DNA of 64,000 nt. Origin: Octopus vulgaris. Lineage: Eukaryota. A program made the translations under genes and the position numbers. The notes under the pieces are model-generated. The model did not search any database. It worked only from the letters and a program-made list of their open reading frames with translations, and had not been told where the DNA came from. Shown here piece by piece: positions 1,259 through 60,363 of this stretch. Position 1 is the first letter of the stretch, and each line of letters starts with the position of its first letter. Location: NCBI GenBank assembly GCA_951406725.2, contig OX597820.1, positions 35,278,001-35,342,000 on the forward strand. Direction: 5' to 3'.

Positions 1259-1450
1259 TTCTACAATAGGCACACGGGTTGGAATTTCAGGCGAGGGGTA
1301 TCACATTGACCCACTGGTACTTAATTTATCGACCTCGAAAGGATGAAAAGCAAAGTTGACCTCGGCGGAATTTGAACTCAGAACGTAGCGACAGGTGAAG
1401 TGCTGCTAAGCATTTCACCCGGCGTGCAAATGATTCTGTCAAATAATAAT

Positions 1451-1697
1451 ATGAATGAGAGCTGAGGAAACTGCGGAAGATTAAGACAGCAATTATTTCT
1501 GTAGTATTTGGTGCACTTGGCACAACACGCAAAATGCTACGTAAAAGATTGAAAGAATTTGGAAATGAAACTGCAATTCTCGACTTGCAAAATGTACCAT
1601 CCTACAATATGCAAGAATCTTTAAAAATTCTCGAGATCTGAAGAGACTTGTTGTCGCCAAACCTCTAGATAAAATACCTGCTAACTAAATTAGCGAA
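1451..1697 (+). mobile_element. 3' stub of a second Dong/R4-like RLE LINE
   Basis: Translates ELRKLRKIKTAIISVVFGALGTTRKMLRKRLKEFGNETAILDLQ, similar to EIEKMWHLKAVTISVIVGALGMIKK..LQEVQK of the 44-46 kb element. Short aataataa runs on both sides. Confidence 0.7.
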
Positions 1698-1990
1698 ATA
1701 ATAATAAGAATTCTCTATGCTATAGGCACGAAGTCAGCAATTTTGAAGGTGTGGGAGGCAAGTGAATTACTTGTCGGATACCTTATTTTATCGACATCCA
1801 AAAGAGGAAAGGCAAATGCGACTTTGGTGGAATTTGAATTCTGGAGTAGAAAGAAATGTTTTGTTGGTCCGTTGTATATTTCAGTGTAATTCGGTGGTTT
1901 AATTGGAGATTCAACTTCTTTTTCCAGCAAGTTGGCGCCTCGTGTGCCCTCTATTGTAGTTATAGTTAATTATAATTATACACACACACA

Positions 1991-2075
<85 letters not shown>

Positions 2076-2327
2076 GTATATGTATATGTGTATGTATGTA
2101 TGTATGAATGTATGCATGTATGTATGTATATATGTATGTATGTATATTGACAAAGAGCTGTGCTCGAAACTTCAAACTCTCTTTCCAGCATCCTCTTGGT
2201 GTCCCTTAATTTTATTATTCGTCTTTCTGAACTTATTGTTTATTTGACTTGACCAAACACACACACACACACACATGTATAAATAATATGTATATATTTT
2301 AGATATCATATTATATATACATATGAG

Positions 2328-2401
<74 letters not shown>

Positions 2402-2842
2402 GACAGAGAGACAGAGACAGAGGGAGAGAGGGAAGGGAGGGAAGGAGGGAGAGAGGGAGAGAGAGGGAGAGAAAGGGAGAGAGAGAGGGGGGTGAGAGTA
2501 TATTAAAGAAGACTTTGTTCGTAAAATATTTAGTTGCATCATCCCACACGGCTTTCATTAACAATGAAAAAATGCCATATCAGATAAATCTGATAAGCCG
2601 ATGTCATTGTCAACTCTGATTAGTGATTCATCTTTTAACTTTTACTTGTTTCACAGCCTTGAAGAAGTTTTAGCTGATCAAATCTACACCAGTCTTAATA
2701 AGCCTGATACTTATTCTATCAAATGTCAATGGCTGAACCGCTAAGTTACGGGGGCGGAAATACAACTAAATAAGTTGTCAAGCTGTGGTTCGGGGACACA
2801 AAGATACAAAGATGCAAAGACTCACACACTCACACACTTACG

Positions 2843-3342
<500 letters not shown>

Positions 3343-3576
3343 ATGTATATACGACGGGCTTCTTTCGGCAAGGCTTTGGTCGGCCCGAGGCTATATCTAA
3401 AGACACTTTTAGTATTGATACTGGACTGCTAAAACAACTGAGTAAAATTGGTTTATCGATTTAGTTTCTCTACTTATTGTCTTGTACAGAGGGATAACAG
3501 AGTGACGCCATTGTAGAATGGTGAGAGGGGTGCTATGCTAAAAGTTCCCTATTATCACTCTATACCAGACCACATG

Positions 3577-3878
3577 TGGAGGCACATGGTCTAGTGGTTA
3601 GAGTAGCAGACTGGCGGTCGAGGGATCGCGGGTTCGAATCTCAGACCGGGCGATGTGTGTGTTTATGAGCGAAACACTTAAGCTCCACGCGGCTCCGGCG
3701 GAAGGCAATGGCGAACTTCTGCTGACTCTTTCGCCACAATTTTCTCTCACTCTTTCCTCCTGCATTTTGCGGCTCACCTGCGACGGACCGGCGTCTCATC
3801 CAGATGGGGAACCTATACGCCAAGGATACCGGGAGACCGTCCCTTATGAGCCAGGCGTGGTTCGAGAAGGAACAAACT
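3577..3878 (+). mobile_element. SINE family C (tRNA head)
   Basis: A box tggtctagtgg, B box ggttcgaatc; head shared with 25129-25495 and 55143-55260. Confidence 0.8.
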
Positions 3879-4249
3879 AGATCACAACCATGTTGTCTGA
3901 GATACACCAGTATCTTTTATACTTATTAGGAGGAACATGCTTGATACATAAAATGGAGATTGTTTGTTATTGTGCATCTCACTGCATTAGATCTATGTCT
4001 AGAACTATCAGGTTTCAGTGGTCCCAGCATGTTATCCCTTTGATATATCATTTTTGTTGACTGTTAGCTTGCTAATTACCGTCCGTTCTCACACACGCTG
4101 GTTTGTACGTGTACACAAAAATTCCCAAACGCACATGTATGGCAAAAACAAGAGGGTATACTTATATATCTATGCATGCACACATACAAACTCGTGCTCG
4201 TACACACACACGCGCATACACACTCACAAATAAGTCGTGAATTTCTTTC

Positions 4250-4346
4250 TAAAATAATATTGTTGAATTTTGTTTGATTGTTATTGTAAAAATATTGATT
4301 TCTATATTGTTATTTGTTAATTATTGTTATTTGTTAATTTATTTAC

Positions 4347-4395
<49 letters not shown>

Positions 4396-5473
4396 CATCA
4401 TTATTATTATTATTGTTGTTGTTGTTGTTATCTTGTGAACTATAATCTTAACGTATTACGTATAATTTACATTGGGAAATAGTTTTGTAAGACAAAATCT
4501 TATCGAATTCGTAGTAATTTTTTTATTTGTTATGTAATATTGCATTTAAGTAAATATTTTTAATAATAATAGAAACTTTGGTTAATTCTATAAATGAGTG
4601 AAATAATAAATCTATAATAAATTGAATTAATTATATAATAAGTTTAATTAATTTGTGTGTATATATTTGAACCATTTGCTATGTTTAATTCTTGTAATTA
4701 TAGTTTGTAGTAGTATTATGTATATAAGTTAGCATGAAGGTTTTTAGTATATATTAAATAATTAGAATAAGATTAAACTTAAATGTTTATTAAATTAATA
4801 CATAAATAAATAATGTAATGAATATAGATTAAATTATAGTATTTTAGCTTCACATAATGTATATTATTTATTTTATATATATTTTTTGTTTTAAATATTT
4901 TGTTTTAATTACTTGTATTTTAATTTTCTAGTAATGATATACTATAGTTTGTTATTTTTTTCCTTCTATAAGCTAAATTATATTTTCAAGGATAAAATAA
5001 ATATTTCAAACTATTTATTCTAGTTTCATTTACACCACGTTTTTAACGAGATAAATTTACTGAGTCCTACCTATTAAGTTTAAGGATTTAGTTAACAGAA
5101 TATATTCAATAAGATATTTTATGTTTTTATTCTAAGATATATTGTTGAATTTTGTTCGTTTTTTATTGTAAAATTTTTATATATATTTATATTTTCTTAT
5201 AAGATACAATACGAACATTTATTTAATTATTTTATTGTTTTTATCTTAGACCTGAAGAGTGACTATATTCAAACTGAATTGATTTTATTGTTATCAATTT
5301 GAAAATATAGCCCCGAAACACGTGTAATCTATTTACTAATTATATACTATTTATTTATTGCTTCGCACTTTATTTAGTTCTAGATAAATGTTTTATCGTA
5401 TCTTTAATTTATTTTTAATATGGTATGATTTAAAAATATCATTGTTATATTGCTACATGGTGGTTCTTCTCTA

Positions 5474-7440: not shown

Positions 7441-7900
7441 AATTTTTATTAATACTATTTAAAGAAACCTCGTCGAATTTATTTCATTGGTAAACAGACT
7501 TTTATGTCGTGAGTTCAAATCTTGTTGATGTAAACTTCACCTCGCATCTTTCGGTGATTGATGAAATAAAGTACCAGTCAAGTACAGGGGTCGATATAAT
7601 CAGTTGTAATCTTTCTTCCAAATTCAAGACCTATATTAAGTAGTTATCATAAGGGTAGTGGACTGGCATAACTCTTAGAGTATTGTAAGAATCAGTTTGT
7701 GATGTCTGTTCCGGCTCATTAGTTTTTGAGTTCAAATCCCGTTGGAGTCAACTTTGTCTTGCCTTGTTACGGAGTCGATGAAATAAAGTACCAGTCATGT
7801 ACTAGGACCGTTTGTACCGATTATCCCTCCCACTTCAAAACTGCTTACCTTGAATTTCTAAATTATTTTTGGTTCACTAACTTCTGAGTTCAAATCTTGC

Positions 7901-8053
7901 CTAGTGGTTAAGAGTGCGGGCTACTAAAACCCAAGATTCCGAGTTCGATTCCAGGCAGTGATCTGATTAATAATAATAACATCGAAAAATACCCAGGTTC
8001 GACATTTCCCCAAGACACCCGATGAAGGCTGATACAAGATAAGGACAAATATC
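7901..8053 (+). mobile_element. Deleted copy of the tRNA-headed hammerhead-tailed element
   Basis: tagtggttaagagtgcgggctactaa..gagttcgattcc..taataataacatcgaaaaata..caagacacccgatgaaggctg matches the reverse complement of 47603-47865. Confidence 0.75.
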
Positions 8054-16292: not shown

Positions 16293-16519
16293 ATATACAT
16301 ATATATCTCATGTATGTTGATGCCAACAGGAAACAGAACTCAAAATATGAGTATATGTATATTTTCATTAATATTTAATATTTGATAAGTACCAACGCAC
16401 GAAAATCTTGGACCTTTAGTCACTCTGGTACTTCTGAAAGAGTGAAAGGTGAAAGCGGGTAAATGAATAAAAACCCTAAGGTCCTCGTGCCAATAATGAG
16501 AATAATCGAAAATTGAAAA

Positions 16520-16595
16520 GTCAGACATACCCATATCACCGTGATTTCGGACTTTGAGAAATACCCTTAGTTCCTCTTCAGCAAGTCTTACTGAC
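16520..16595 (-). ncRNA. Type I hammerhead ribozyme motif with extended helix I
   Basis: gtcag.taag.acttg-CUGAAGA-ggaact..agtcc-GAAA-ucac-g-guga-UA-tgggt.atgt.ctgac. Confidence 0.65.
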
Positions 16596-16714
16596 ACCCA
16601 AGGTTGTAGAGTTTACTCATCTCAACCAATGTGTGCAATGGCCGTTTTTAATGCTGCAACAAATTTTAAAAAGAGATCGAATTGAATAAAAATTATTCAT
16701 ATATATATATATAT

Positions 16715-17088
16715 CAGGATATTATTGTTTATAATAATATCAGTGGTTTAGCATGCGTAATAAAAGTCCATAATGGTATAAATTATCAATTAATAACTAA
16801 GGGAACTAACAGAGGAACTAAGGATATTTTTCAAAGTTCGAAATTATGGTGATTCGCGTATGTCTGACGTTTCAAATTTTCGATTATTTTCGTTATTGGT
16901 ACGGGGTTCTTAGGGTTTTTATTCAATTACCCGCTTTCACCTTTGTGTTTAAACGAAAACTTGTGGTTTGGTTACTTTGACTGCTATGTCAACATGCCTG
17001 TTAGTACCCTTAACAACTAATTGATAATTTATACTGTTATAAATCTTTTTACGCATGGTAAACCACTGATATCATTATAAACAATACC

Positions 17089-17091
<3 letters not shown>
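16715..17091 (+). mobile_element. Fold-back Penelope-like element in (TA)n
   Basis: ~90-bp inverted arms (16723-16812 / 16998-17086); 16811-16943 is an inverted homolog of 16446-16577 containing the 3' part of the hammerhead. Confidence 0.6.
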
Positions 17092-17128
<37 letters not shown>

Positions 17129-19647: not shown

Positions 19648-19848
19648 CATATATATATATATATATATATAAACCAATTGTGTGACATTATTTACATTTG
19701 ACGGATATTTGTCCTCATGTTGTTTGTTGTTAACAGGTTCGAAATTTCCCCCAAGACACCTGATGAAGGCTGGAGGGTATATCAGCCGAGACGTTGTGTT
19801 AACAACAAACAAGATGACAACAAATATCCGTCAAATGTAAATATTGTG
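19566..19848 (+). mobile_element. Fold-back hammerhead element (gacac/ggctg family)
   Basis: Inverted arms 19685-19735 / 19798-19847. Motif gacac-CUGAUGA-a-ggctg..cagcc-GAGA-cgUU-gtgtt at 19755-19800. The terminal extension at 19566-19587 matches the reverse complement of 47913-47936. Confidence 0.7.
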
Positions 19849-19866
19849 TATATATATATAAATATA

Positions 19867-20333: not shown

Positions 20334-20829
20334 TGTATGTATATATGCGAGTATGTGTGCATGTATATCATATACATATATATATATCTATATATGTAAT
20401 GTAATATATATATATATACATCATGTATTTATATATGTGTGTGTGTGTGGCGGGGTGTATAAGTAAAAGGTGTGTTATGAGCATTTATAGTATATAATCC
20501 TATATAAACTCAATTAACAATCACAAAATAGAGAAGAGAAAATGTTAAAAGTTTTTATAAAGTTTTAATCCATACGGTCGTTTCGAATGATAATACCAAT
20601 ATGTAAGAAACATGTAAAATTAAATTAATTCTGATAATAATTAAAATGATAATTGAATTAATTCAATTTAATTTTATTACGTATTACCATACTCCTCCAG
20701 CTACTACTTGAACTAAACCTTTTTCACACATATATGTACGTATATGTATATATTTCTCCTCTTCTCTCTCTCTCTCTCTCTGTACCTATATATATATATA
20801 TATATATAAGTATATATGTGTGTATGTAT

Positions 20830-20860
<31 letters not shown>

Positions 20861-20874
20861 GACGTATGTATATA

Positions 20875-20938
<64 letters not shown>

Positions 20939-20940
20939 TA

Positions 20941-21692
20941 CCGGAGTAAACACATAAATGTGAAACAAGGTGGAAAAAAGAGTACTCAAATACCAGTGGT
21001 AGAGTAATATGCTTTATTATAAGCAGCAGTATCTGTTACTCTGAGTTTCTCGTTTGTTCATCAGACAGTTTTTGCTAGAATGGAACATATATATTAATTC
21101 AATCTATACTCTTACAAACGCTACACCTATAAAGAAATGGACTTGTTTGATTATAGAAATATCAATCTTCGAGCGATAAAGGTCAAAAAAGGTCAAAATA
21201 TATGTATATATATATAAAAACTTATAAAATTATAAAATCCGAGGAAAATACCGAGAAAACCTGTTGCCGTTAATGAAGACAGTACAAATTAATGCATAGA
21301 AATTAAACCTGTTATAAATACTGCAATACATATTTGTGGATTTTAATATAAATATGTATTGCAGTATTTATAACAGGTTTAATTTCTATGCATTAATTTG
21401 TACTGTCTTCATTAACGGCAACAGGTTTTTTCCTCGGTATTTTCCTCGGATTTTATAATTTTTATAAGTTTTTATATATATATACATATATTTTTGACCT
21501 TTTGTTTATCGCTCGAAGATTGACCGTTTTTTCTAAAGGGCCAATCAAACAAGTCCATTTCTTTTTAAAGGTGTAGCGTTTGTAAGAGTATAGATTGAAT
21601 TAATATATATGTTCCATTCTAGCAAAAACTGTCTGATGAACGGCAACGAGAAACTCAGAGTAACAGATTTTGTTGAATTTTCTGCTGCTTAA
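20941..21692. mobile_element. 750-bp fold-back element with a hammerhead in each arm
   Basis: Arms 21021-21335 / 21350-21690; hammerheads at 21033-21068 (-) and 21629-21666 (+); unpaired extension 20941-21020 abuts (TA)n. Confidence 0.85.
21629..21666 (+). ncRNA. Minimal type I hammerhead ribozyme motif
   Basis: ctgt-CUGAUGA-a-cg-gcaa-cg-a-GAAA-cuc-a-gag-UA-acag: intact core, GNRA-capped helix II, 1-nt helix III loop, GUA site. Confidence 0.75.
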
Positions 21693-22636
21693 AATATATA
21701 TATACATATATATACATGCATGTTTTTGTATGTGTGTGCAAGTGTGCATGTGAAGATGCGTGGATTAGTGGTTAGTGTATTCGGACCACGATCCGAAGAT
21801 CATGAGTTCGATTCCCAGCGACGCGTTGTGTCCTTGAGAAAAACACTTTATTTTACGTTTCTCCAGCTGGCAAAAATGAGAAAAATGAGTAGTACCTGCA
21901 TTTCAAAAGGCCAACCTTGTCACATTCTGTGTCACGCTCAATCTTCACGAGAACTACGTTAAGGATACACGCGTCTATGGAGTGCTCAGCCACACGCACG
22001 TTAATCTCACCTCCTCAAGCAGGTGACAACACCGTGTAAAAATGTACAGTTCAGCAGCAAGGTTTGCTTCCTCAACAGATGTTAAATAGTCAGTATGTTT
22101 CGTAAACATTAACGTATACGCAAATACATACACACACACACATACACGCACATACACACTTAATTGCTCATGTACCAATCATCCTTTCTCGACGTCACGA
22201 ACGTACCAGACGTTCATGCATCAAAGACAAACCTGCCAATCTATATAGGTGAATTACTTGAAAAAATGTTATTTACAGTTTTCGGTGCAAGACAATTGTA
22301 CATTGCCAATCCTAATGTCTAGCTCATAAGCACTGATCCTGTATCGGTGCACAACATGCACCCAGTGGTATCTGTTACTGTTTTGCTTTTATTCTTTTAC
22401 AGATCCGGAGGAAACAAGTCTGGTTGCATTTGGGTTTGTTGGTTCTATATAATATTAATACAGTGTGTTCATATTGCCTAATGTAGCATAAAGCAGGGAA
22501 TATAGTGTGTAAAAGTGTGCGTGCGTGGGTCTATATGTATGGAATAGAGTGTTTGGGCATTTATGTATTTGTTATGGTATTCAAACATATACACCGACTT
22601 ACACACACAGACACACACACATGAATGTATAATATA

Positions 22637-22704
<68 letters not shown>

Positions 22705-22912
22705 TTTATATAAATATATATACATACACGATGCATGATATATATACGTAAATATGTTTGAGTGTGTATGTATGTACGTAGGTATGTATCTGTATATATA
22801 TATGTGTGTGTGTGTGTGTGTTTATATATATATACATATATTGGTATATATGTGTATGCATGCATGCGTGTAGATTAAAAATTTTCACCAGCAGACTAAG
22901 ATCCGGTACCGA

Positions 22913-22963
<51 letters not shown>

Positions 22964-23299
22964 CACGCACACACACACATGTATCTATACGTATGACTTT
23001 AAGTGTGTATGTTTCTTGGTATGCATATATGTATGTGTAAGTGCATGTATGTTCGTAAGTATGAATATATGTCTATATGTATATATATATATATTTATGT
23101 ATACACGTATGTATGAGATATGTGCATTTGTATTTATGCATTTATATACGTATGTACGTTTGTATGTATATATGCATTCCTTCAATTTTATAATTTATTT
23201 ATTGTTCATACGTGCATATACGAAGTATGTTACAGAAGTTATAACTGTCTCAGATTATTGTAATTTTAGAATATCGTTGCTATGCATCTAATAAGCTGA

Positions 23300-23615
23300 C
23301 TCCTCAACTTTTGCTATTTCAGATTGAGGGACACGACAGTAATTTCTCTTTGAACACGCTGTGCTAAAAACTGCTTCTCAGAATTCCATCGTGGCAACCA
23401 ACTATTCATTAAAACTGTCCCTCAAATTCCTTGCAGCCCAAGCCTTCCTTCTTGTGACTTTTGGTTATTCCCCAAACTGAAGGAAACCTCAGGGTCAGTC
23501 GTTTTGAATATGAAGAAGGCAGTGTCAGGGGTCATGGATACCTTAACTTTGGAGAATATCCATGAGACCTTTACAAAGTGGTTGCATCCCTACAGCAAGT
23601 GGCTTTAAGTTAGCA
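23300..23615 (+). mobile_element. Mariner transposase C-terminal remnant
   Basis: IKTVPQIPCSPSLPSCDFWLFPKLKE resembles the PYSPDLAPCDFWLFPKLK motif. Confidence 0.7.
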
Positions 23616-23621
23616 CGTACA

Positions 23622-24008
23622 TTGCTAGAAATAAGTGATAAAAGCCTTTATAGTCACAGGAAGCACATATCTACGCATCGACAGGGGAAATAACCGCCCC
23701 GCAGCAAGCGAGATCGCCATACAAGTCTAGTTTCGTTTCGAATGGAAGCTCCTCAGTGGTGACTACTCCGTCAAGGAGCTGTCACCACAGAGGAGCTTTA
23801 ATTCGAAGCCAAACTAGACTAAATTCGGAGCGAAACTAGATTATTATGGTGATTTCGCTCGCTGTAGGGTGGTTATCTCCCCTGTCAGTGCATAGTGCAT
23901 AGAAAAGTGCTTCCTGTGGTTATAAAGGCTTTTAGCTCTTGTTTCTAGCAAAACTGACAATTGAAATTTTCCGTTTTGGTTAAATATTGCATATAGCCGC
24001 CTTGGTTT
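23622..24008. mobile_element. Fold-back element with hammerhead motifs
   Basis: Arms ~23622-23769 / ~23774-23951. Minus-strand tcacca-CUGAGGA-gcttc-cattc-gaaac-GAAA-cuag-a-cuug-UA-tggcga at 23714-23762. The extension ends at (TA)n. Confidence 0.7.
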
Positions 24009-24024
24009 TATATATATATATATA

Positions 24025-24402
24025 CTAGCAGTATCGCCCGGCGTTGCTCAGGTTTGTAAGGGAAATAACTATAAAGCATTTTTAGAGAGTTATAGCCAAA
24101 AAATAGCAAAAAAAATGGAAAAAAATTATGGTAAATTTTTTTAGAGTTAAAAAAGGTGGAGTTGTGTCCCCTAGACGGTCTGTGGTTTGGGTTTCTGATT
24201 CTCGACCCCATGTCGAATTTATCGATTTTTTTCAGAACTGGGAGAACTTTTCAAAATTTTCGCTGCGTTAGTTTTGAATTATGACATTGGGCTATGTGTG
24301 TGTCAAATTTCATCAGAATCGGTTGAAAGCCGTGGTCAGAGTGAGGGTACGAGAAAACAAACACACAGAAAACGCACAGACAAACTGCCGTTTATATATA
24401 GA
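24025..24402 (-). mobile_element. Non-autonomous Helitron
   Basis: 5' a|TCtatatataaa, 3' hairpin plus CTAG|t on the minus strand; inserted in (TA)n. Confidence 0.75.
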
Positions 24403-24698
24403 TATATATATATATAGGAGACCCACTTCGGCCATGAATGACCATGGGATTGTACCCAGAAAATTACCCTCCGAGGCACAAGTCCGGGCAAGGTTGTTTG
24501 TGGAAGGCCAACAGTCGCCCATGCACACCACTGATGTTGTCCGAGGGAAATGCAAAGACCGATACAACTTGGCACCAGTGATGTTGCAATTCATTTCTAC
24601 AGCTGAGTGAACTGGAGCAACGTGAAATAAAGTGTCTTGCTCAAGAACACAACACGCAACCCGGTCCGGGAATCGAACTCACATGATCGTATATACAT

Positions 24699-25105
24699 CA
24701 GTGACGTGCCGTCTAGGTAGGCAAGGTAGGCAGTGCCTACCTTGGATAAAATAAATCTATAGCAACATTTTCCTTTCATGGTAAAATATGCACCTAATTC
24801 AATAAAATCATGGAGGTTACTCTGATTACAAAGTATAAAATGCAAAATATTTTATTTTCTTAGAGATTAGATAGGCATAATACGTCCCTGCTCTTCAATC
24901 TCATTATTTAAGCTACGCATAATGTTGCTATAGTACACGTGTCGTGTACATTCCTACAACAACATTTTCTTTACGTGCTATAAAGGCAGAAGTAGATCTG
25001 CCTACAAGTCAGCTGCGCGCCTTTGTTTCGATTATTTTGTGTGTGTTTTACAACATAAAGGTCTCCAACTGCCTATCCAGAGTACTTACTTACGGCACGT
25101 GCCTG
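24699..25105. mobile_element. TIR MITE (hAT-like ends)
   Basis: TIRs cagtgacgtgccgt / acggcacgtgcctg (12/14); no clean TSD. Confidence 0.5.
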
Positions 25106-25128
25106 ATAAATCTATATACATATAGCGT

Positions 25129-25495
25129 GGTGGCGCAATGGCCCAGTGGTTAGGTCAGCGGACTCGCGGTCGTAGGATCGCGGTTTCGATTCCCAGACCG
25201 GGCGTTGTGAGTGTTTATTGAGCGAAAACACCTAAAGCTTCACAAGGCTCCTGCAGGGGGTGGTGGTGAACTCTGCTGTACTTTTTCACCATAACTTCTT
25301 CCTGTTTCTGTTGTACCTGTATTTCAAAGGGCCACCCTTGTCACACTCTGTGTCACGCTGAATCTCCTCGAGAACTACGTTAAGGGTACACGTGTCTGTG
25401 GAGTGCTCAGCCACTTGCACGTTAATTCCACGAGCAAGCTGTTCCGTTGATCGTATCAGCTGGGACCCTCATCGTCGTAACCGACGGAGTGCTCC
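25129..25495 (+). mobile_element. tRNA-derived SINE (family C head; tail shared with 21753-22020)
   Basis: A/B boxes tggcccagtgg / ggtttcgattcc. Confidence 0.8.
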
Positions 25496-25611
25496 TATAT
25501 ATATATATATACATATAGCAAATCCCCACCCACCACAAAAAAAGCGCAGAGTACACACAAAGAAACAACAGCGTTAATATTGGCAGACGCTCAGGGAGGG
25601 AAAGAAAGGTA

Positions 25612-25646
25612 GTTTTACGTTTCGAGAAAAGCTCTTCCTCAGAAAC
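25612..25646 (-). ncRNA. Minimal hammerhead motif essentially lacking helix III
   Basis: gttt-CUGAGGA-a-gagc-ttt-tctc-GAAA-cg-UA-aaac. Confidence 0.65.
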
Positions 25647-25830
25647 AGGAGACAGAGGAAAGTCCAATAGAAAGGAAAGACTGAGGAAAAAACAAATTCA
25701 CACACACACACACATGGTTGCAGAACAAACAAATATAAGGTCATCCACGTAACATTTCATATCTCGAACATTTAATCACATAATGCTTTTTCTTTCAACA
25801 TAGAATATACATGCATAAAATCACCGAAGA

Positions 25831-25874
<44 letters not shown>

Positions 25875-25876
<2 letters not shown>

Positions 25877-26116
25877 GGAGTAAACACATAAATGTGAAAC
25901 AAGGTGGAAAAAAGAGTACTCAAATACCAGTGGTAGAGTAATATGCTTTATTTAAAGCAGCAGAAAATTCAACAAAACCTGCACTCTGAGTTTCCGTTGC
26001 CGTTCATCGGACAGTTTTTGCTATTTTGCTAGAATCTAGCAAAAACTGTCCGATGAACGGCAACGGGAAACTCAGAGTAACAGGTTTTGTTGAATTTTCT
26101 GGTGCTTTAAATAAAG
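25875..26116. mobile_element. Short fold-back copy of the 20941 family
   Basis: Same terminus ccggagtaaacacata after (TA)n; arms ~25945-26023 / 26036-26116; both hammerhead copies read CCGAUGA. Confidence 0.85.
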
Positions 26117-26236
26117 TATATATATATATATATATACAATTTAAAAATAGGATTTATTTTGGTAGTTTTGACTTTAAGTGTCCCTCCTAGCTTGTGGCAT
26201 TTATGTATAGTAATGCCCTCTATATAATATAAATAA

Positions 26237-26276
<40 letters not shown>

Positions 26277-26590
26277 TTAATAAAGTAGAAGATGGAATGT
26301 ATATTAGACTTTTATTAAGTACAACATTATATATATATAATAACAAATTAATAAATAAAACATGCATATATATATGTATACATATATGTACGTACCCACA
26401 TCTATAAGCATATATACATGCATATAAGGGTACGCCGAACACAATGAGAAACGAAAACAAACACAAAACCAAGGAAATGGACATTTTTCTTAAACAACGA
26501 AAAAATAGAGTACAGGACATACAACACAAGGAACATTCCCCTTCATCAGCCGCCTCTGTTTCATCTACTCCGCGTTGCGCACAATTGCAT

Positions 26591-38505: not shown

Positions 38506-38974
38506 CACACACACACGCACGCACACACACGCACGCACACACACACACACATAGTTAATTCAATTAAACGAACAATTACAAAACAGAAAAAAAGGAAAAG
38601 GCAAAAAGACAAACATGAAGATATGTACAAGAAGTATATTAATTTGATGCTCGATGAAGGGAGAGAGTTGTTGTTAATATTCCGAGCATAGCTCTTCGTC
38701 GTAAACAGGAAAGTCCAAAGAGAAAGTAGGAAATATAAGGAAAAATCGCCGATAATACGGTTTCCAACGATTAACATGTATATATATATATTTAATCGGT
38801 AAAACGCTTACAATACATACTCGTATGCACACACATACACATACATCTATGTATATAGACCTATATGTGTGTGTATTTATATATATACATATATCGTTCG
38901 TGAACAGTTGGCGATTTTTCCTTATATTTCCTTCTTTCTATTTCGAATTTCCTGTTTCCGACGAAGTATGTATA

Positions 38975-39786: not shown

Positions 39787-40369
39787 GAAACCTGCCCGGG
39801 AAGTAAACCCAAGTGCAAGTGCTCCTACCAGCACCAAAAGCCATGGAGATGAAAGAGCCAAAAAAGAAATAAAAGGAGGAAAAACTAAAAGAAGAACAAA
39901 AGATGAAACAGCCAAGGATAGAAGCAAACCTGACTATCCATGTACCAAAAAGGATAGAAACAGACAGCGCACACGAATATGTAAATTCTACATGAAAGGT
40001 GTCTGCTGGCATGGAGAGGAAGGTGCAGACTGCCGTTTTGCACATCAAAGACCCTGTCACATAAACTCGAAACACGTCAGAAACCAACTACCAAAAGGAA
40101 AAGGAATGGACCACGCACCACCTGCCCCAAAACGGAGGTACGCAGATGTGGTGCGTGCTACAAACCGCCAACATGTTATTGAAAGGGCAGCTGCTGAACA
40201 AGAATCTTTTTTGTGCATGGCACAAAAGATTGTACATCAGCTAACCTGGCTCCATCAAACTCAAACTCGCAGATGGGACTATCCACAATACACAAGACCG
40301 CCACAGCAAATAGACCCAAGGTGGACACCGCCGGCAACAGCATACACCTCATCTCGATGCTCCTACTGA
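39787..40369 (+). CDS. LINE ORF1 (5'-truncated) with CCCH zinc finger
   Basis: CKFYMKGVCWHGEEGADCRFAH (C-x7-C-x8-C-x3-H); basic; overlaps the start of ORF2. Confidence 0.7.
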
Positions 40370-42877
40370 ACATCAGAGGACTGCTAACACTCAGTAATAG
40401 GACAAAAATCCCGTTCTTGAGATACTTTGTTGCATGCAATCAAGCCTTATGCATAGCACTTACGGAAACACACCTCAAACCGGACATAGCAGATGCGGAA
40501 TTATACATACCACAGTATGTTGTACTACGGACCGACAGAAAAGAAAGGAGTCATGGAGGAGTTGCTATGTCCTTCCGTGAGGACCTCACACCCCAGTTCC
40601 TTTTGTCATACTCAAACTCGGTGTGTGACACACTAATTGTACATATAAGGCAACTTGGTGTAGTTGTGTGTGCTACATATCGCCCTCCAGATGCCCCAAG
40701 CCATGTAGGCAAGTTTGAAGACTGCCTTATAAAAATAGAAGTTCTAGTCACATTAGAACAACACATAAGTGTACTTCTTATGGGAGACTTCAATCTACCC
40801 AATGTCAGATGGCCCGAGGGCCTTTCTCTCCCAGGAATGACACGATGTGAACGAGGACAGGCGAGGTCCCTCCTGAACCTCATCAACACCCTGTACATGG
40901 AGCAAGTAATACTCCAACCAACCAGGGCAGGTAACATACTGGATCTCTGCTTCACAAATAATATGGATCTCATCCATAATGTGACACCGACACTACTCTC
41001 GGATCACAACATGGTAGAGCTGACCATGTACGGGCCAAAGGAAAGCATGGACATGCAGCCTACAAGAAACTCTCAGAATCTTTCCAGCTTGAACTTCCAT
41101 AAGGCAAACTGGAAACAAATTGAGAAAGAGATCCTCAAACAAAACTGGCCTGAATGTCTCTCCTCGCCAGACATCGACATGAAACTTCAACAATTCATGT
41201 CTGTAATGCAAGCCATATGCTACAAATGTGTCCCAGAGAGAAAGGCCACTGTACACAAGAACAAAATCCCCAGAGAGAGGAAAATTCTAATGAGACGGCG
41301 TACAAAAGTTTCAAATCGCCTGAACAAACAAATTGAAAGCAGTGAAAAGTCCCGCCTGAAAATAAAACTGTTGGAAATTGAAAAATGTCTGCAACTCTCC
41401 CATGAAAAGGAAAGAGCAGGCAAAGAAGCCTGGGCTATAGACAACATAAAATCTAACCCCAGAGCTTTCTACAGGTATGCCAAAGAAACAGCTACGGTGC
41501 ACTGTAGGATAGGGCCACTCCTTGAAAAGGATGGCACACTCACAGGAAATCCAATGAGGGTAAGTGAAATACTAAATGAGCAATTCAAGAGTGTTTTCAC
41601 TCCACCCCTTGGGCATTTCCAAGTCAGCAATCCAACTGACTTCTTTACCACTGCAGATATAAAATCAGAGGCAGCGATGATTGATTACATCAATATAAAG
41701 GAAGACGATGTAATAAAGGCTATTGATGAAATGAAAACAAACTCAGCTACTGGCCCCGATGGATTCCCAGCAATCCTTCTAAAAGTATGTAAGAGAGTCC
41801 TAGCAAGACCACTGCAGTTCCTCTTTCAGAGCTTCCTTGCAACTGGCAAACTTCCAAGAAAACTGAAGGAAGGTAAAATATGCCCTATTCATAAAGGAGG
41901 TAGCAGAGCGGAGGCCAAGAACTACAGACCTATCTCTCTGACCTCACACATCAGCAAAGTCATGGAACGAATAGTCAGAAGGAAACTAATCATCTTCCTT
42001 GAAGAAAATGACTTGCTGCCTGACACCCAACATGGTTTCCGACCAGGAAGAAGCTGCTTAACTCAGCTCCTACAACACTATGACTGGGTGCTGAAACGAC
42101 TGCTCAACCACTCAAATGTGGAAGTGATATATCTCGACTTTGCAAAGGCCTTTGATAAAGTCGATCATGGAATGATATGTTACAAACTGCGTGATCTTGG
42201 CATAGTTGGAAAATTGGGAGAATGGCTTCATGACTTTCTCAAGGATAGAAGTCAGGTGGTAGTAGCCAATGAGGCCACTTCCATTAACACGCAAATAGTG
42301 AGCGGTGTCCCGCAGGGCACTGTTTTGGGATCACTACTGTTCATAATGGCCCTCTCAGACATGCCCTCAGCCACACAGAGAGCCACGATCACAAGTTATG
42401 TAGATGATACAAAAGTTTCACAGGCAATACAGAACCCTGAAGACACTAAGCACCTGCAATGTGAGCTGGACAAAATATACAAGTGGGCTGAAAAGAATAG
42501 CATGCAGTTCAATGCTGAAAAGTTTCAAGCTTTATGCTATCAGCATGCAAAACTAAATGCAATACCCAATGAATACACTGGACCTGGAGGGATTGCAATC
42601 CCAGAGGCACAATCAGTGCGTGACCTGGATATTTACATGAGTGATGACGTAACCTTTCATGTACATGTTGCTAAATTGGCAATGAAATGTAGGCGGCTGG
42701 CAGGATGGATTCTTAGAACCTTTAGAACAAGAGAACAAGAAACCATGATGGTCCTCTGGAGGACACTTGTCCTAAGCCACTTTGACTATTGCTCTCAGCT
42801 ATGGTCACCATCCAGTATCAAGTTGATCACAGAACCTGAGGCGATCCAACGAAGCTACACGAAGAAGATAGCCTCTG
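40213..42877 (+). CDS. LINE ORF2, APE endonuclease plus reverse transcriptase (CR1/L2 group), 3'-truncated
   Basis: NIRGL, LTETHL, YRPP, GDFNLP, LDLCF, SDH; [49 protein letters not shown]. Beyond ~42877 the ORF reads through a microsatellite. Confidence 0.95.
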
Positions 42878-42956
42878 TGTATCTATGTATGTATGCATGT
42901 ATGTATACATATCTATTTATCTCTCTCTCTATCTATGTATCTGTCTATCTATCTAC

Positions 42957-43016
<60 letters not shown>

Positions 43017-43041
43017 TTATCCATCTATCTGTCTATCTACT

Positions 43042-43211
<170 letters not shown>

Positions 43212-43546
43212 AGTTCTTTCCTAAATGGATAGCATCAATTGAAGGAGATTTGGAAAAGGGGATTAAGACATTTTTTCGATTATAATGGATCTGAAGACGG
43301 CAACGTGTGTACGAATCCTTAGGTAATACATTAAATCCTAATGGAAATCCACTGGCACAAAAGCGAATCAGAAACGCATACAAAGTAATAGTGAATATTT
43401 TTATATATCTTTAGTGTTGCTACACGTATAAATTGTTCTTTACTTTGTGAGTAGGACTAGATGCAAATATAATACTACATGCATGCTTACTCATACGTGC
43501 AAATATATGTATACACGCACAAACATGCACATGCAAGTCTGTATAT

Positions 43547-43628
<82 letters not shown>

Positions 43629-44087
43629 ATGAGTAGAGTTAGCTCCTGGAATAACCGTCTAAGGGATAAGAATATCCGTTCTTACTACTGGTATCAATAA
43701 CCTATGTTAATCCTGGCCATGGGTATGCAAGCACACTAGATTATTATTTGCTAGTTCACGCTTTTGCCCATCGACTTGCACTGCAAAACGGTATGATTCT
43801 AATATATTGAGCCTTCTTGCCTCATCTCTAGGCCCTGTTCATTCCTCTTCCCTCTTCCCTTCTTTTATTTTATGTATTTGTATTCACTCTGATGAAGCTC
43901 CATTCACTAGATCGGATGTGCTATAAAGATGACGAATATTATTTTCGGAATTTTCTTCGGAGGCAGGCACCGACTGATATTGGTAGCTGAAGCTGCCGTA
44001 AACAATGTTAAAGTTTTGTATTAAAATATAATTAACCGATGTGGGTCAATTTGTTTGTTTGTTGCTCAAAGGTTTTCTCCTTTTCTG

Positions 44088-46088
<2,001 letters not shown>

Positions 46089-47144: not shown

Positions 47145-47602
47145 TATATATGTGTGTGTATGTAAGTATGTATTATGTATGTATGTATGTATACTAATAC
47201 ATGACCCGTCTTCTTATAATAGGTATTGCTTTGTTTTATTGAAATGCAAGTATATAATCAACGAAAAATAAGCACATACTAAAATAAAGAGTTAAAAAGT
47301 GTTAACATCAAAATAAGTACAATGTAAGTCTATCTGTCTATTTCTATAGACAACATTGTATACAATAGCCTACAGGCAAGAAAGTTTGACAGTCATACAT
47401 TGTCTGTGCATATACTATTTGTAGTGAACTTAACGCTTTCATAATTAGGATGCCTGTGGTTTCCTCTTGATATAGTAGGAGGGTGGGCAGAAAAGTTCAT
47501 AGGTAGAGTAAAGGTACAGCTGTAAAACCTTGCATGCATTAATCCCAACTCCTCGTATTAATATCTGCATTATTTCCTTCCTAGTAAACAAGACCTCTGA
47601 CT

Positions 47603-47937
47603 ACATTATTTACATTATTTACATTCGACGGATAGTTGTACACATTATGTTTGTAGTTAACACAACGTTTCGGCTGATATTCCCTCCAGCCTTCTTCAGG
47701 TGTCTTGGGGAAATTTAGAACCTGGGTTCTCATTCCTAAGGTATTTTTCGATGTTGTTGTTGTTATTATTATTATTATTATTATTGTTCAGGTAACTGCT
47801 TGGAATCGAACTCCGAATCTTGGGGTTAGTAGCCCGCGCTCTTAACCACTACGCCATTTGCCCATGAGCGAATATCCGTCGAATGTAAATATTGTAAATA
47901 ATGTACATAATTCTTCATCTCTTAAATATAGAATTGT
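47603..47937 (-). mobile_element. tRNA-headed element with hammerhead tail, nested in the mariner
   Basis: A/B boxes, (AAT)n linker, hammerhead at 47659-47704, inverted tail copy at 47873-47905; flanked by aagacctctgact / aagacatctgact. Confidence 0.8.
47659..47704 (-). ncRNA. Minimal type I hammerhead ribozyme motif
   Basis: gacac-CUGAAGA-a-ggctg-gagggaatat-cagcc-GAAA-cg-UU-gtgtt; intact core. Confidence 0.72.
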
Positions 47938-50214
47938 AAGACATCTGACTGTTCAAAGAAAGCTTTAAACGTAACTAGTAGCGACTTCTCTTGAAACAGG
48001 TCAAAATTTGGCATTGCCGTGCAATCAAGAACCCGCAGAAAAAATACTTGGCCCCCTAACAACATACATGTTGATATGGTTGCTACGTTAGCGGTGATGC
48101 TCCAGTTTTATAAACAGTGCCAAAGTGGGCAACTGAATTTTAAAAAGGAAGGAAGAGTTTTGAAGATGACACAAGGTCTGGACGTCTTGAAACTACCATC
48201 ACAGAGGAAAACCTTAATATCGTTCACCGCATAGGGATGGATGACAGGCAGTTGACTATGAATAAAATAACCAATGCAATTAGCATTACCCTTGAGAAAG
48301 TTGAACATATTCAGCACAATGAACCTGGCATGAAGAACGTTTCTGCTCTGTGGGTACCACATCGGATGCTTGATCAAAAGTACACTAGGCTGATCACATC
48401 ACGGGAAAATCTGACATTGTGTCAGGTAGATCCAAATGGTTTACACGAATGTTTCCTAACTCAAGATGAGTGTTGGCTTCATCGCTTTGAGCCAGAAACA
48501 AAGAGATAATCTATGCTTTGGAAACACTCCTCTTCACCTCCTCCAAAGAAGGCCAAGGTCAAGGTCATTTCATCTGGAGAGAAGATGATGACCTTAGGTT
48601 TTTGGGGATGCAAAAGGAATTATGTTTATTGGTTATCCTCAGAAAGGCTACACCATCAATGGAGATCATTATGCCAACTTTCTGAGGCAGTTATGAAACG
48701 TTATGTAGAGCAAACACAGAAAACTGGCGAAAGTGATCTAATCTCATCGGGACAATCTTCCTTTGGTTTCAATGGCTGCTGTGCGTAACTGTGGCTTTGA
48801 ACCGGTTGAGCAGCTTCCTTATTCCTTTGATTTAGCCGAATTTGACTATTATTTGTTCTCCAGCACGAAAAAAAGAAATTCACTAGGAGCCAGTATCGCA
48901 GTGATGGTAATATCATATCTGTTGTTGATGACTTTCTTGACCAACACGATGAAAGTATCTGCACCAATGGACTCCAAGCACTGCAACACCGACGGAAGAA
49001 GTGTGTAGACCGCAAAGGGGACTATGTTAAAAAATAAACTTCATTTGGTCATATTCTATGTGGGTATCTTCGTCAACCTATGAACTTGTCAGCTGACTCT
49101 CGTACATTGAGTTTGATCATAAATATCTTAATGCCTGGTGGAACTACAAACAACGTACACCTACCCATGTGAGAACACGTCTGTAGTATCGTGAAGAAGC
49201 TAACTTATTAAAATTTTACTGAGAGAAACGAATACTAACTCGTAAGTTTTCTGAAAACGAATTTAAAGAACAGAAATTCAATATTTTCTTTTTGTTTTAT
49301 AATAAAATTCTTCTAAAGAAGCAATTTCTTTATTTTCGAAAAGGACACTTTGATGTCATTAACGAACGTGTTCAGAAATATCTATGATGTGTGTCTGTGT
49401 ACATGATGGTTGTCTGCTAGTGACCGAGGAAGACCATCACTGACCGCTAAGAACACTGTGTGCTTAATTTTATGTGAAACTGGGAGCAATGTTTTTTTTT
49501 TTTTATTTCTTTTGTCTTTTGATTGAATTTTGTCACCGGAAAAGTATTTTCACTTAACCATCTGTCTGCTAGTGTATGTGCATGTATTGTTTGTGTGTGT
49601 ACGTGTGTGTGTGTGTGTGTGTATGTGTGTGTGTGTGTGTGCGTGCATGTGCGTGTGTGTCTGTGTATGTGTCTGTGTGTGTGTTTGTGTGTGTTTGTGC
49701 GTGTGAGTGTGTGTTGTGTGTGTGTGTACGTGAGAGAGAGAGAGAGAGAGTGTGTGTGTGTGTGTGTGCGTGTGAAAATAAAACAATGTAGTCATTATAG
49801 ACTATTAAAACCTTTCCCTCTGCAATATAATGATATAGTGTTGAACTCCAGAAGACTACGTATATAATACGCGTCATTGTAGTCTTCATAACGTCACAGT
49901 ATTGTGACGTAAAAAAATTGCATGGGAAATCCAGCACGCCATTTTATACGAGGAGCGCACAAACACGCACACACGTACATATTTCACACCTATATATAAA
50001 ATTTTTCATGCCATAAAAATAGATTGCCGAGCTAACAAGTGTGACGAACCAACAAGGAAGTTATTACATGTCTACCTAACCATCTAGAAATAGCAGCCAA
50101 GATATTCCTCAAATCATGCTCACACGTCTGAAAGTTCATTTTGGATAGTGTAGATTATCCTCTCACCCAAACTTACAGTTTAAGCTTGCGCTCGCGAACA
50201 AACGTCATCTTCTT

Positions 50215-57130: not shown

Positions 57131-57779
57131 TTTCAAAGCTTAATTTTCTCTTTTTCTGCTTTTTCTTCTTTCCTTTCTTATAAGCCATTTAAAAGCACAC
57201 AAAAACCGCTAGATTCACGTCAACATTTAAATTTAATTTGTCAAAATATTTTCGTCACTTTGAAATTGCTATTGTTTACTGACAAAATTCTGTGCTGAAT
57301 TTTGTCAGTGAATTGTAAATATTATTGATTGTAATTATATTTAAATAAAAATATATATATATCGCGAAAAACACACGTGTCCTACGGTCTGATGACGTCA
57401 TTCATAACCCAGTGATTTGTTTTTCCCACATATTGTCTACAAGGAGAATTTCTTCCCCGAGGTAATTTCCATAACGAATGCACATTTGAGTGTATACGAA
57501 TGTGTACACACTTATACTTTGAGCAACGCTGCTTAGTTCACTTCTAGTTAACCATCTAAAAGGTGTCTGCGGCTCAATGACTCTCAAATGACATTTAATT
57601 TGAAGTAGTTTGTTTTTTTAGAACAAAAAACTCGATGCGCGTAGAGGATACCTCGGTTGTTTATTCATGTTCTGTGAGACCATTGTCGAACCTTGATCCT
57701 CATAGTCAGAGTAGATATGGAAGCTAAAATACCACCACAACAAACACAACAACTACAACAACTACAACTACAACAACAA

Positions 57780-60218: not shown

Positions 60219-60363
60219 GCAGCCAAAACTTGACTCTAAAACCACATTAAATGTTCACACAGCACCAGGAGAGTAATTTTTTGCTAGTTTATTTTGTCCT
60301 TTTGTCTTCTCTCCTGGTGCTGTATGAACATTTAATGTGGTTTTAGAGTCAAGTTTTGGCTGC
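60219..60363. repeat. 55-bp inverted repeat with 35-nt spacer
   Basis: Arms 60219-60273 / 60309-60363, one mismatch. Confidence 0.9.

What the first reader, a model, noticed from the sequence alone, without database searches (positions are those of the whole stretch)
25875..26116. Arm-shared variants suggest each palindrome is made at insertion
Seen: same family and identical terminus (TA)n|ccggagtaaac as 20941, but a different fold-back point. Both arms here have CCGAUGA, whereas both arms at 21 kb have CUGAUGA. Inference: the two arms derive from one template molecule (template switch or fold-back synthesis), with a fixed 3' end primed at (TA)n and variable 5' truncation. This fits retrotransposition rather than a MITE with fixed TIRs.
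Basis: partly seen in the sequence, partly recalled or inferred. Interest (0 to 1): 0.7.

Follow-up and report, generated by a model that had tools for sequence, protein, structure and literature searches.

The report
Penelope-type retrotransposon palindrome remnant
This short hairpin-shaped piece of animal DNA is most likely the cut-short leftover of a known kind of jumping gene, and its two mirror-image halves were probably made together when it landed, which specialists have already proposed.

Summary
25875-26116 is (TA)n, a 71-nt one-sided tail, and two head-to-head arms (78 and 82 nt) with a minimal hammerhead-like core. It shares an identical 78-nt end with the copy at 20941, whose arms turn back about 250 nt further in. 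Arms pair by locus at 2 clear sites plus 1 weak and 1 ambiguous, and by side at 0. CCGAUGA is derived: under 2% of family depth in 4 runs. This layout (5' truncation, inverted truncated copy, one-sided tail, hammerhead, microsatellite target) is the published Penelope-like element pattern, and self-priming was proposed for it in 2013. So 'retrotransposon, not MITE' holds but is known. 'One molecule folded back' is not shown. Same-donor copying or later arm-to-arm conversion also gives shared variants. The tail arms carry private deletions missing from the other arm. At 21 kb the tail-less arm is the longer one at the centre. A second family in the window gives one site for locus pairing and one against. 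Best model: both target nicks primed on one donor transcript. No encoding protein was found, so family membership is inferred from structure.

The parts
25836..25874 (.). (TA)n target microsatellite, left flank
25875..25945 (-). 71-nt one-sided 3' extension ('tail'), present on the left end only
   Evidence: identical to 20941-21011; family contigs run from this end into (TA)n in 4 of 4 runs, and one contig per run in 3 of 4 runs shows this 71-nt unit repeated in tandem
25946..26023 (-). left arm, 78 nt, 5'-truncated pLTR-like end with hammerhead-like core starting at 26010 (U4C variant at 26009; two private one-base losses)
26024..26035 (+). inversion junction: 8-nt tandem duplicate of 26016-26023, then 4 more left-arm family bases; symmetry centre at 26034; 1-nt overlap with the right arm at 26035
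26035..26116 (+). right arm, 82 nt, no tail; hammerhead-like core 26050-26071, palindromic helix III, predicted cut after 26079; by-locus variants at 26051, 26084 and (weak) 26108
26117..26136 (.). (TA)n target microsatellite, right flank
20941..21011 (-). second locus: same 71-nt tail after a TA-rich microsatellite
21012..21335 (-). second locus: left arm, 324 nt, with 8 places lacking letters relative to the right arm and 1 insertion
21339..21696 (+). second locus: right arm, 358 nt, no tail, canonical CUGAUGA core at 21633; its first 11 nt form most of the central spacer
   Evidence: loose ends behind 21335

Best explanation
A non-coding, 5'-truncated insertion of a very abundant Penelope-like (PLE-type) retroelement family, with the palindrome built during integration. 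Shown: layout, tail end adjoining (TA)n, two different inner ends, hammerhead-like core, pairing of arms by locus. Inferred from known PLE biochemistry: an RT plus GIY-YIG protein encoded elsewhere nicked both strands of a (TA)n tract. The top-strand 3' end primed reverse transcription at the tail end of the RNA, giving tail plus left arm. The bottom-strand 3' end primed at the second start site at the pLTR end, giving the tail-less right arm. Both cDNAs stopped at nearly the same place and were joined head to head with 0-1 nt microhomology and a local 8-nt slip. The arms share variants because they came from one donor transcript that already carried them, including the rare U4C change. Private differences arose in separate synthesis, later mutation or sequencing error. 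Odds: made at insertion from one donor about 0.7, split about 0.4 for this two-primer route and 0.3 for fold-back.
For: Layout matches published PLE insertions: 5' truncation, an inverted 5'-truncated copy at the 5' end, a tail on one end, microsatellite bias (PMC8557442; PMC3846280). Pairs of minimal hammerheads 100-700 bp apart on opposite strands are reported for PLE remnants (PMC4209133). A purified PLE protein cuts and extends both strands, prefers AT-rich DNA and starts RT at two sites that bound the tail (PMC11167929). A relaxed hammerhead descriptor gave 5 hits in the window, 2 of them the right arms here, against 1 hit in 10 shuffled windows. Helix III is a self-complementary palindrome (duplex -8.8 kcal/mol). 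Contigs laid on the 21-kb tail plus arm: 2640, 4636, 4432 and 1390 in 4 runs of 4 studies, with loose ends at the tail end reading (TA)n. By-locus sites 3, by-side 0. The U4C change has no row at the 2% threshold, so it is rare and derived, yet it is on both arms; the 26084 site shows both letters across the runs' loose-end consensuses, and each locus has one of them on both arms. The inner ends of the two arms lie 2 and 11-14 nt apart within loci but about 250 nt apart between loci (chance about 0.01 and 0.08 if ends fell evenly over 345 nt).
Against: Only 2 loci and 2-3 informative sites (chance 0.11 to 0.04). A second hammerhead family with 2 palindromic loci (19.7 kb, 47.7 kb) gives 1 site by locus and 1 site against in 25 shared bases, and its inner ends are about 60 and 240 nt apart. 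No RT/GIY-YIG reading frame was found for this family, so PLE identity rests on structure. The tail is 71 nt, not the usual 30-40. The G10.1-C11.1 pair typical of PLE hammerheads is absent, and Rfam gave no hammerhead match. Within-locus divergence is nearly as large as between-locus divergence while the tails are identical. One search listed no strand-changing joints, so the spread of turning points across the family was not measured.
Confidence: 0.7

Rival explanations
1. Strict fold-back or self-priming: one cDNA, primed at the tail, turns on itself, and the second arm is a DNA copy of the first that stops at the first TA-rich stretch and joins the other target end.
For: Explains a rare derived variant on both arms and the near-coincident inner ends. 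At 26 kb the tail arm is the longer one at the centre, by about 2 nt. Self-priming was proposed for such head-to-head palindromes in PMC3846280.
Against: The register at 26034 leaves a 1-nt loop and at most a 1-bp primer. At 21 kb the spacer is family sequence of the tail-less arm, and a strand primed at that end could not copy a tail. Eight deletions in the 21-kb tail arm and 2 in the 26-kb tail arm are not in the partner arm, so they would all have to be later events or sequencing errors.
Confidence: 0.3
2. Later homogenisation: the arms began different or identical, and a mutation on one arm was copied to the other by template switching or gene conversion within the palindrome.
For: Arm homogenisation of short inverted repeats by template switching is a described process (PMC8604942, search listing and start of abstract only). 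The rare U4C site lies within 25 nt of the centre, and the 80 bases next to the 21-kb centre are a perfect match while differences sit further out.
Against: The by-locus site at 26084 lies beyond unconverted differences at 26066 and 26079-80, so conversion would have to be patchy. It does not explain the tail or the variable centre.
Confidence: 0.12
3. Assembly effect: the palindrome is real or partly real, but arm-shared and arm-private letters come from read errors or polishing across a hairpin in a huge repeat family.
For: Private changes are mostly small deletions, fall on the left arm 8 of 8 times at 21 kb (sign test 0.008) and spare the adjacent non-palindromic tail. Public contigs show the right-arm form at 7 of those 8 places. 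The best listed runs hold 15 of 22 sampled words of this copy. Reduced long-read accuracy in hairpins is recalled, not from a call.
Against: Several unrelated families in the window show the same head-to-head layout. The tail|(TA)n end and the family letters are in independent public data. Error would not readily give the same substitution on both arms.
Confidence: 0.07
4. A ready-made palindrome that moves as a unit (foldback or MITE-like element, or a re-retrotransposed palindromic transcript), with the short copy a central-deletion derivative.
For: TA-flanked hairpins are typical of Tc1/mariner-type MITEs (recalled). A target duplication cannot be read inside (TA)n.
Against: The ends are not inverted repeats of each other (71-nt one-sided tail). 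The right ends differ by a few bases between loci. The centre at 26034 is almost exactly symmetric and has a tandem slip, unlike a simple deletion.
Confidence: 0.06

Closest known systems
Endonuclease-positive Penelope-like elements (Penelope/Poseidon, Neptune, Nematis, Hydra): truncated insertions with an inverted pLTR and tail (PMC8557442, PMC3846280)
   Same: 5' truncation, head-to-head inverted truncated copy, one-sided 3' extension, simple AT-rich target, hammerhead in the terminal repeat
   Different: No reading frame in either copy; tail 71 nt rather than 30-40; clade not determined; target duplication unreadable
Minimal type I hammerheads of metazoan PLEs (PMC4209133; review PMC6765202)
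   Same: CUGAUGA and GAAA core, one extra base after position 9, short helix I, palindromic helix III suited to dimers, pairs on opposite strands
   Different: Helix II is only 2 bp with a GCAA loop and lacks G10.1-C11.1; this copy has U4C on both arms; no Rfam match
Poseidon element PAc of Anolis (PMC11167929)
   Same: Tail bounded by two ends, AT-rich target, hammerhead just upstream of the tail; cleavage was not needed for insertion in vitro, which fits a core-mutant copy having moved
   Different: In the parts read, that work does not address how inverted copies form; here no coding frame starts in the hammerhead
Non-LTR retrozymes (bioRxiv 10.64898/2026.07.22.740005)
   Same: Non-coding, hammerhead-bearing, PLE-related; the long copy has a decayed second half-hammerhead about 230 nt upstream
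   Different: Retrozymes are head-to-tail tandem arrays; these are head-to-head with a tail
MITEs and foldback DNA transposons
   Same: Short, hairpin-forming, TA-flanked, high copy
   Different: No terminal inverted repeats; variable centre; ribozyme-like core

Membership tests
EN+ Penelope-like element | Single ORF with telomerase-like RT and GIY-YIG endonuclease | tested here: inconclusive
   No such frame in either copy or nearby. The two RT frames found in the window are LINE-type and unlinked (5 ORFs scanned, not all 45). No whole genome was held, so an autonomous partner could not be sought.
EN+ Penelope-like element | Hammerhead motif in the terminal repeat | tested here: met
   Descriptor hits at 21633 and 26050; 5 hits in the window against 1 in 10 shuffles; palindromic helix III. 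Sequence pattern only; cleavage not tested; no Rfam hit.
EN+ Penelope-like element | Inverted 5'-truncated copy adjoining the 5' end (head to head) | tested here: met
   2 of 2 loci
EN+ Penelope-like element | One-sided 30-40 bp tail | tested here: inconclusive
   One-sided extension present at 2 of 2 loci, but 71 nt long
EN+ Penelope-like element | Variable 5' truncation with a fixed 3' end | tested here: met
   Inner ends about 250 nt apart between 2 loci; the tail end adjoins (TA)n in family contigs of 4 runs. Only 2 junctions seen.
EN+ Penelope-like element | Insertion bias for AT-rich or microsatellite DNA | tested here: met
   Both flanks of both loci; (TA)n consensus of loose ends at 20944 in 55, 55, 80 and 38 contigs
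EN+ Penelope-like element | Direct pLTR / partial tandem structure and target-site duplication | not testable with these tools
   No full-length copy available; a duplication cannot be read inside (TA)n
Metazoan PLE minimal hammerhead | G10.1-C11.1 pair closing helix II | tested here: not met
   Helix II region reads A-CG-GCAA-CG-A/G against the consensus described
MITE / TIR DNA transposon | Inverted repeats at both termini | tested here: not met
   The inverted repeat starts at 25946, 71 nt inside the left end
Non-LTR retrozyme | Head-to-tail tandem monomers bounded by two intact hammerheads | tested here: not met
   Arms are inverted; the upstream direct copy at about 21402-21429 lacks the GAAA half

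The most novel reading that the evidence does not exclude
PLE palindromes form by twin priming on one RNA: two RT units, started at the two tail-bounding sites from the two target nicks, copy the same stretch of one transcript, stall together and are joined head to head. This would explain the one-sided tail, coincident inner ends, locus-shared variants and arm-private errors at once. A genome with very many such short palindromes would let the question be settled from sequence alone.
Probability: 0.25. Interest if true: 0.65.

Novelty: new member of a known kind. Interest (0 to 1): 0.3.

Why it matters
As an object it is ordinary: a remnant of an abundant Penelope-type family in an animal genome. 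Its value is as test material. How PLEs make inverted pLTRs and tails is still named as an open problem (PMC8557442). Searches of the held library listed no paper that tests it by arm-to-arm variant sharing across loci; that library lacks most subscription papers. This family is very abundant, has short arms and has polymorphic sites, so a whole assembly could separate fold-back, two-primer and later-conversion models. Such remnants would also be easy to mislabel as MITEs.

Tried and rejected
No whole genome was held, so the many-locus tree could not be built. Pattern scans: the hammerhead 24-mer gave 0 hits in metagenome, prokaryote-genome and viral collections; the tail 20-mer gave 0 in metagenomes and 1 in a bacterial genome, a chance match with no similarity beyond the 20 letters. 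Rfam: 0 matches at gathering score; the 97 weak matches at 20800-26300 were mostly microRNA-hairpin look-alikes and none was a hammerhead; rejected. Monomer RNA folds of the four arms were no better than shuffles (z -1.07 to 0.30), as expected for a dimer-type motif and not evidence for one. Sequencing runs: no RNA holder listed. Shares of 0.55-0.68 cannot show whether junction words are held: 81 of 212 31-mers avoid all copy-specific sites and 54 touch one. Laying contigs (4 of the 24 listed runs, on the 21-kb tail and left arm only) listed no strand-changing joints; contigs break at such points, so this is no evidence. Summed depth falls from tail to arm, but the tool warns it is no copy number, and the tail is shared with diverged subfamilies; it was not used as proof of truncation. 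A-to-I editing as the source of the shared variants was considered because three are transitions; rejected, as a T-to-C change on both sense arms does not follow from editing a sense transcript. CpG decay from an ancestral CCG was rejected because neither C nor the opposite-strand product has a row at 2%. A coding frame starting in the hammerhead closes within about 20-30 codons. Three look-ups of earlier findings returned nothing. The paper on small PLE hammerhead variants (Lunse et al.) is not held; only its title was seen.

Full report
Observation. The window is animal-like DNA, rich in microsatellites and about 36% GC; it resembles octopus genomes from memory, which I did not test. At 25875-26116 the sequence is (TA)n, a 71-nt unique stretch, a 78-nt arm, a 12-nt junction, an 82-nt inverted arm, and (TA)n. 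It folds as a hairpin at -93.6 kcal/mol, z -21, with 0 of 200 shuffles as good. blastn finds one other copy in the window, at 20941-21696. The first 78 nt are identical. The arms there are 324 and 358 nt, so the turning point lies about 250 nt further into the element. Both arms here have CCGATGA and both there have CTGATGA.

Arm comparison. In the 80-column alignment of the four arms, 3 sites split by locus (26051, 26084, 26108), 0 by side and 0 crossed. 26108 is at a T/A run boundary and weak; 26066 is ambiguous. Chance for 2 or 3 such sites is 0.11 or 0.04. The arms are not clean copies: 2 substitutions and 2 gaps here, against 5 substitutions between the two right arms. At 21 kb the left arm lacks letters at 8 places and has 1 insertion. 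The junction here has an 8-nt tandem duplicate, a 1-nt centre at 26034 and a 1-nt overlap.

The family outside the window. No whole genome was held, and collection scans gave only one chance match. 20 of 24 listed public runs, from 9 studies, hold over half of the sampled words. I laid contigs of 4 of them on 20941-21345; 1390 to 4636 contigs fitted per run. (a) Loose ends at 20944 read (TA)n in 55, 55, 80 and 38 contigs, so this end adjoins that microsatellite in many family copies. (b) No row shows the CCGATGA letter at the 2% threshold, so it is rare and derived, yet on both arms. (c) The 26084 site shows one letter in the loose-end consensus of 3 runs and the other in 1 run, and each locus has one form on both arms. 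(d) At 7 of the 8 places where the 21-kb left arm is short, contigs show the right-arm form, in shares from about 12% to 99% where a share is given. (e) Depth stops at 21335, and loose ends there continue with the 11 bases that the 21-kb right arm carries, so the spacer belongs to the tail-less arm. (f) One contig per run in 3 of 4 runs has the 71-nt tail repeated in tandem. (g) No strand-changing joints were listed, so turning points across the family were not measured.

Hammerhead. Each arm has CUGAUGA (or CCGAUGA), one extra A, a 2-bp helix II with a GCAA loop, GAAA, a palindromic helix III and a GUA cut triplet, enclosed by helix I. A relaxed descriptor gave 5 hits in the window and 1 in 10 shuffled windows. 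Rfam has no match. The G10.1-C11.1 pair described as highly conserved in PLE motifs is missing. Activity is untested.

What is known. PLE insertions are 5'-truncated, often have an inverted truncated copy at the 5' end, a 30-40 bp tail at one end and a bias for microsatellites (PMC8557442, passages; PMC8969392, passages). Minimal hammerheads sit in their terminal repeats and also occur as pairs 100-700 bp apart on opposite strands (PMC4209133, parts 1-2 of 4; PMC6765202, passages). Head-to-head palindromes were interpreted as self-priming in 2013 (PMC3846280, passages and part 3 of 5 of its main section). A purified PLE protein cuts and extends both strands, prefers AT-rich DNA, starts RT at two sites bounding the tail and does not need ribozyme cleavage to insert (PMC11167929, parts 1-2 of 4). 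Retrozymes are PLE-related but tandem (bioRxiv 10.64898/2026.07.22.740005, passages). Recently active Penelope-like families are listed for Octopus vulgaris (PMC13282606, passages); no link to this family was tested. No supplements were opened; they may hold this family's consensus.

Mechanism. The top strand from 25875 is what a cDNA primed by the left (TA)n end at the RNA's tail end would read (inference). The right arm ends at the pLTR end and has no tail, as a cDNA primed by the right (TA)n end at the second start site would (inference). Within a locus the two inner ends are 2 and 11-14 nt apart; between loci about 250 nt. That coupling, more than the variants, argues that the palindrome was made at insertion (chance about 0.01 and 0.08 under even truncation). 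I put formation at insertion from one donor at 0.7: two-primer 0.4, fold-back 0.3. Against fold-back from the tail strand: the 1-nt loop here, the spacer from the tail-less arm at 21 kb, and left-arm deletions not copied to the right arm. Against two-primer: it needs the donor to carry the rare U4C, which was not shown. Later conversion (0.12), assembly effects (0.07) and a ready-made mobile palindrome (0.06) remain.

Independent check in the window. Other head-to-head repeats with hammerhead-like cores lie at 16.4-16.9, 19.7, 23.6-24.0, 38.7-39.0 and 47.6-47.9 kb. The 19.7 and 47.7 kb loci are one family. In their 25 shared bases one site pairs by locus, one does not, and one is private; their inner ends are about 60 and 240 nt apart. 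This check is therefore inconclusive, though it shows that the layout is common here.

Membership and verdict. It works like an EN+ PLE truncated insertion: 4 structural features met, tail length atypical, defining ORF not found. It fails the MITE test (no terminal inverted repeats) and the retrozyme test (not tandem). New member of a known kind; interest 0.3, mainly because the family could make an open mechanistic question testable.

Noticed in passing
window 21402-21429 (and mirror about 21256-21283): A decayed direct copy of the 5' half of the hammerhead about 230 nt upstream of the intact one, missing the GAAA/helix III part; 6 of 1000 shuffles scored as well. Possibly an old tandem unit.
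   Followed up: partly
window 19656-19866, 47602-47940, 7899-8031: A second hammerhead-bearing family, with a tRNA-like or SINE-like head in two of the copies (resemblance recalled; ARAGORN finds no tRNA); two copies have short inverted arms. The 7.9-kb fragment also reads CCGATGA, a second case of the U4C change.
   Followed up: partly
window 16445-17109: Two interleaved inverted repeats (134 and 114 nt, 83-87% alike) with a hammerhead-like core at 16581 on the minus strand.
   Followed up: partly
window 23622-23951: Head-to-head repeat with 129-nt arms and a hammerhead-like core at 23756 on the minus strand.
   Followed up: no
window 38687-38970 and 25518-25700: A further family: a decayed palindrome at 38.7 kb and a single hammerhead-bearing copy at 25.6 kb, 200 nt left of the finding.
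   Followed up: partly
window 60219-60363 and 57275-57312: A 55-nt-arm inverted repeat with 1 mismatch and no hammerhead seen, and a 38-nt near-palindrome.
   Followed up: no
window 40198-43224: 1008-aa stop-to-stop frame with AP-endonuclease and RT domains (LINE-type), running into microsatellite at its end.
   Followed up: no
window 44025-46000: RT-bearing element in two frames next to an (AAT)n tract; the C-terminal motifs look like a restriction-like endonuclease of Dong/R4-type LINEs (recalled, not tested).
   Followed up: no
joint 21015 to 20945: In 3 of 4 runs one contig at single-copy depth has the 71-nt tail repeated in tandem, which suggests re-priming at the tail end.
   Followed up: no
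loose ends behind 21015-21018: Many contigs share the tail but continue with a diverged arm sequence, so the tail is shared by several subfamilies.
   Followed up: no
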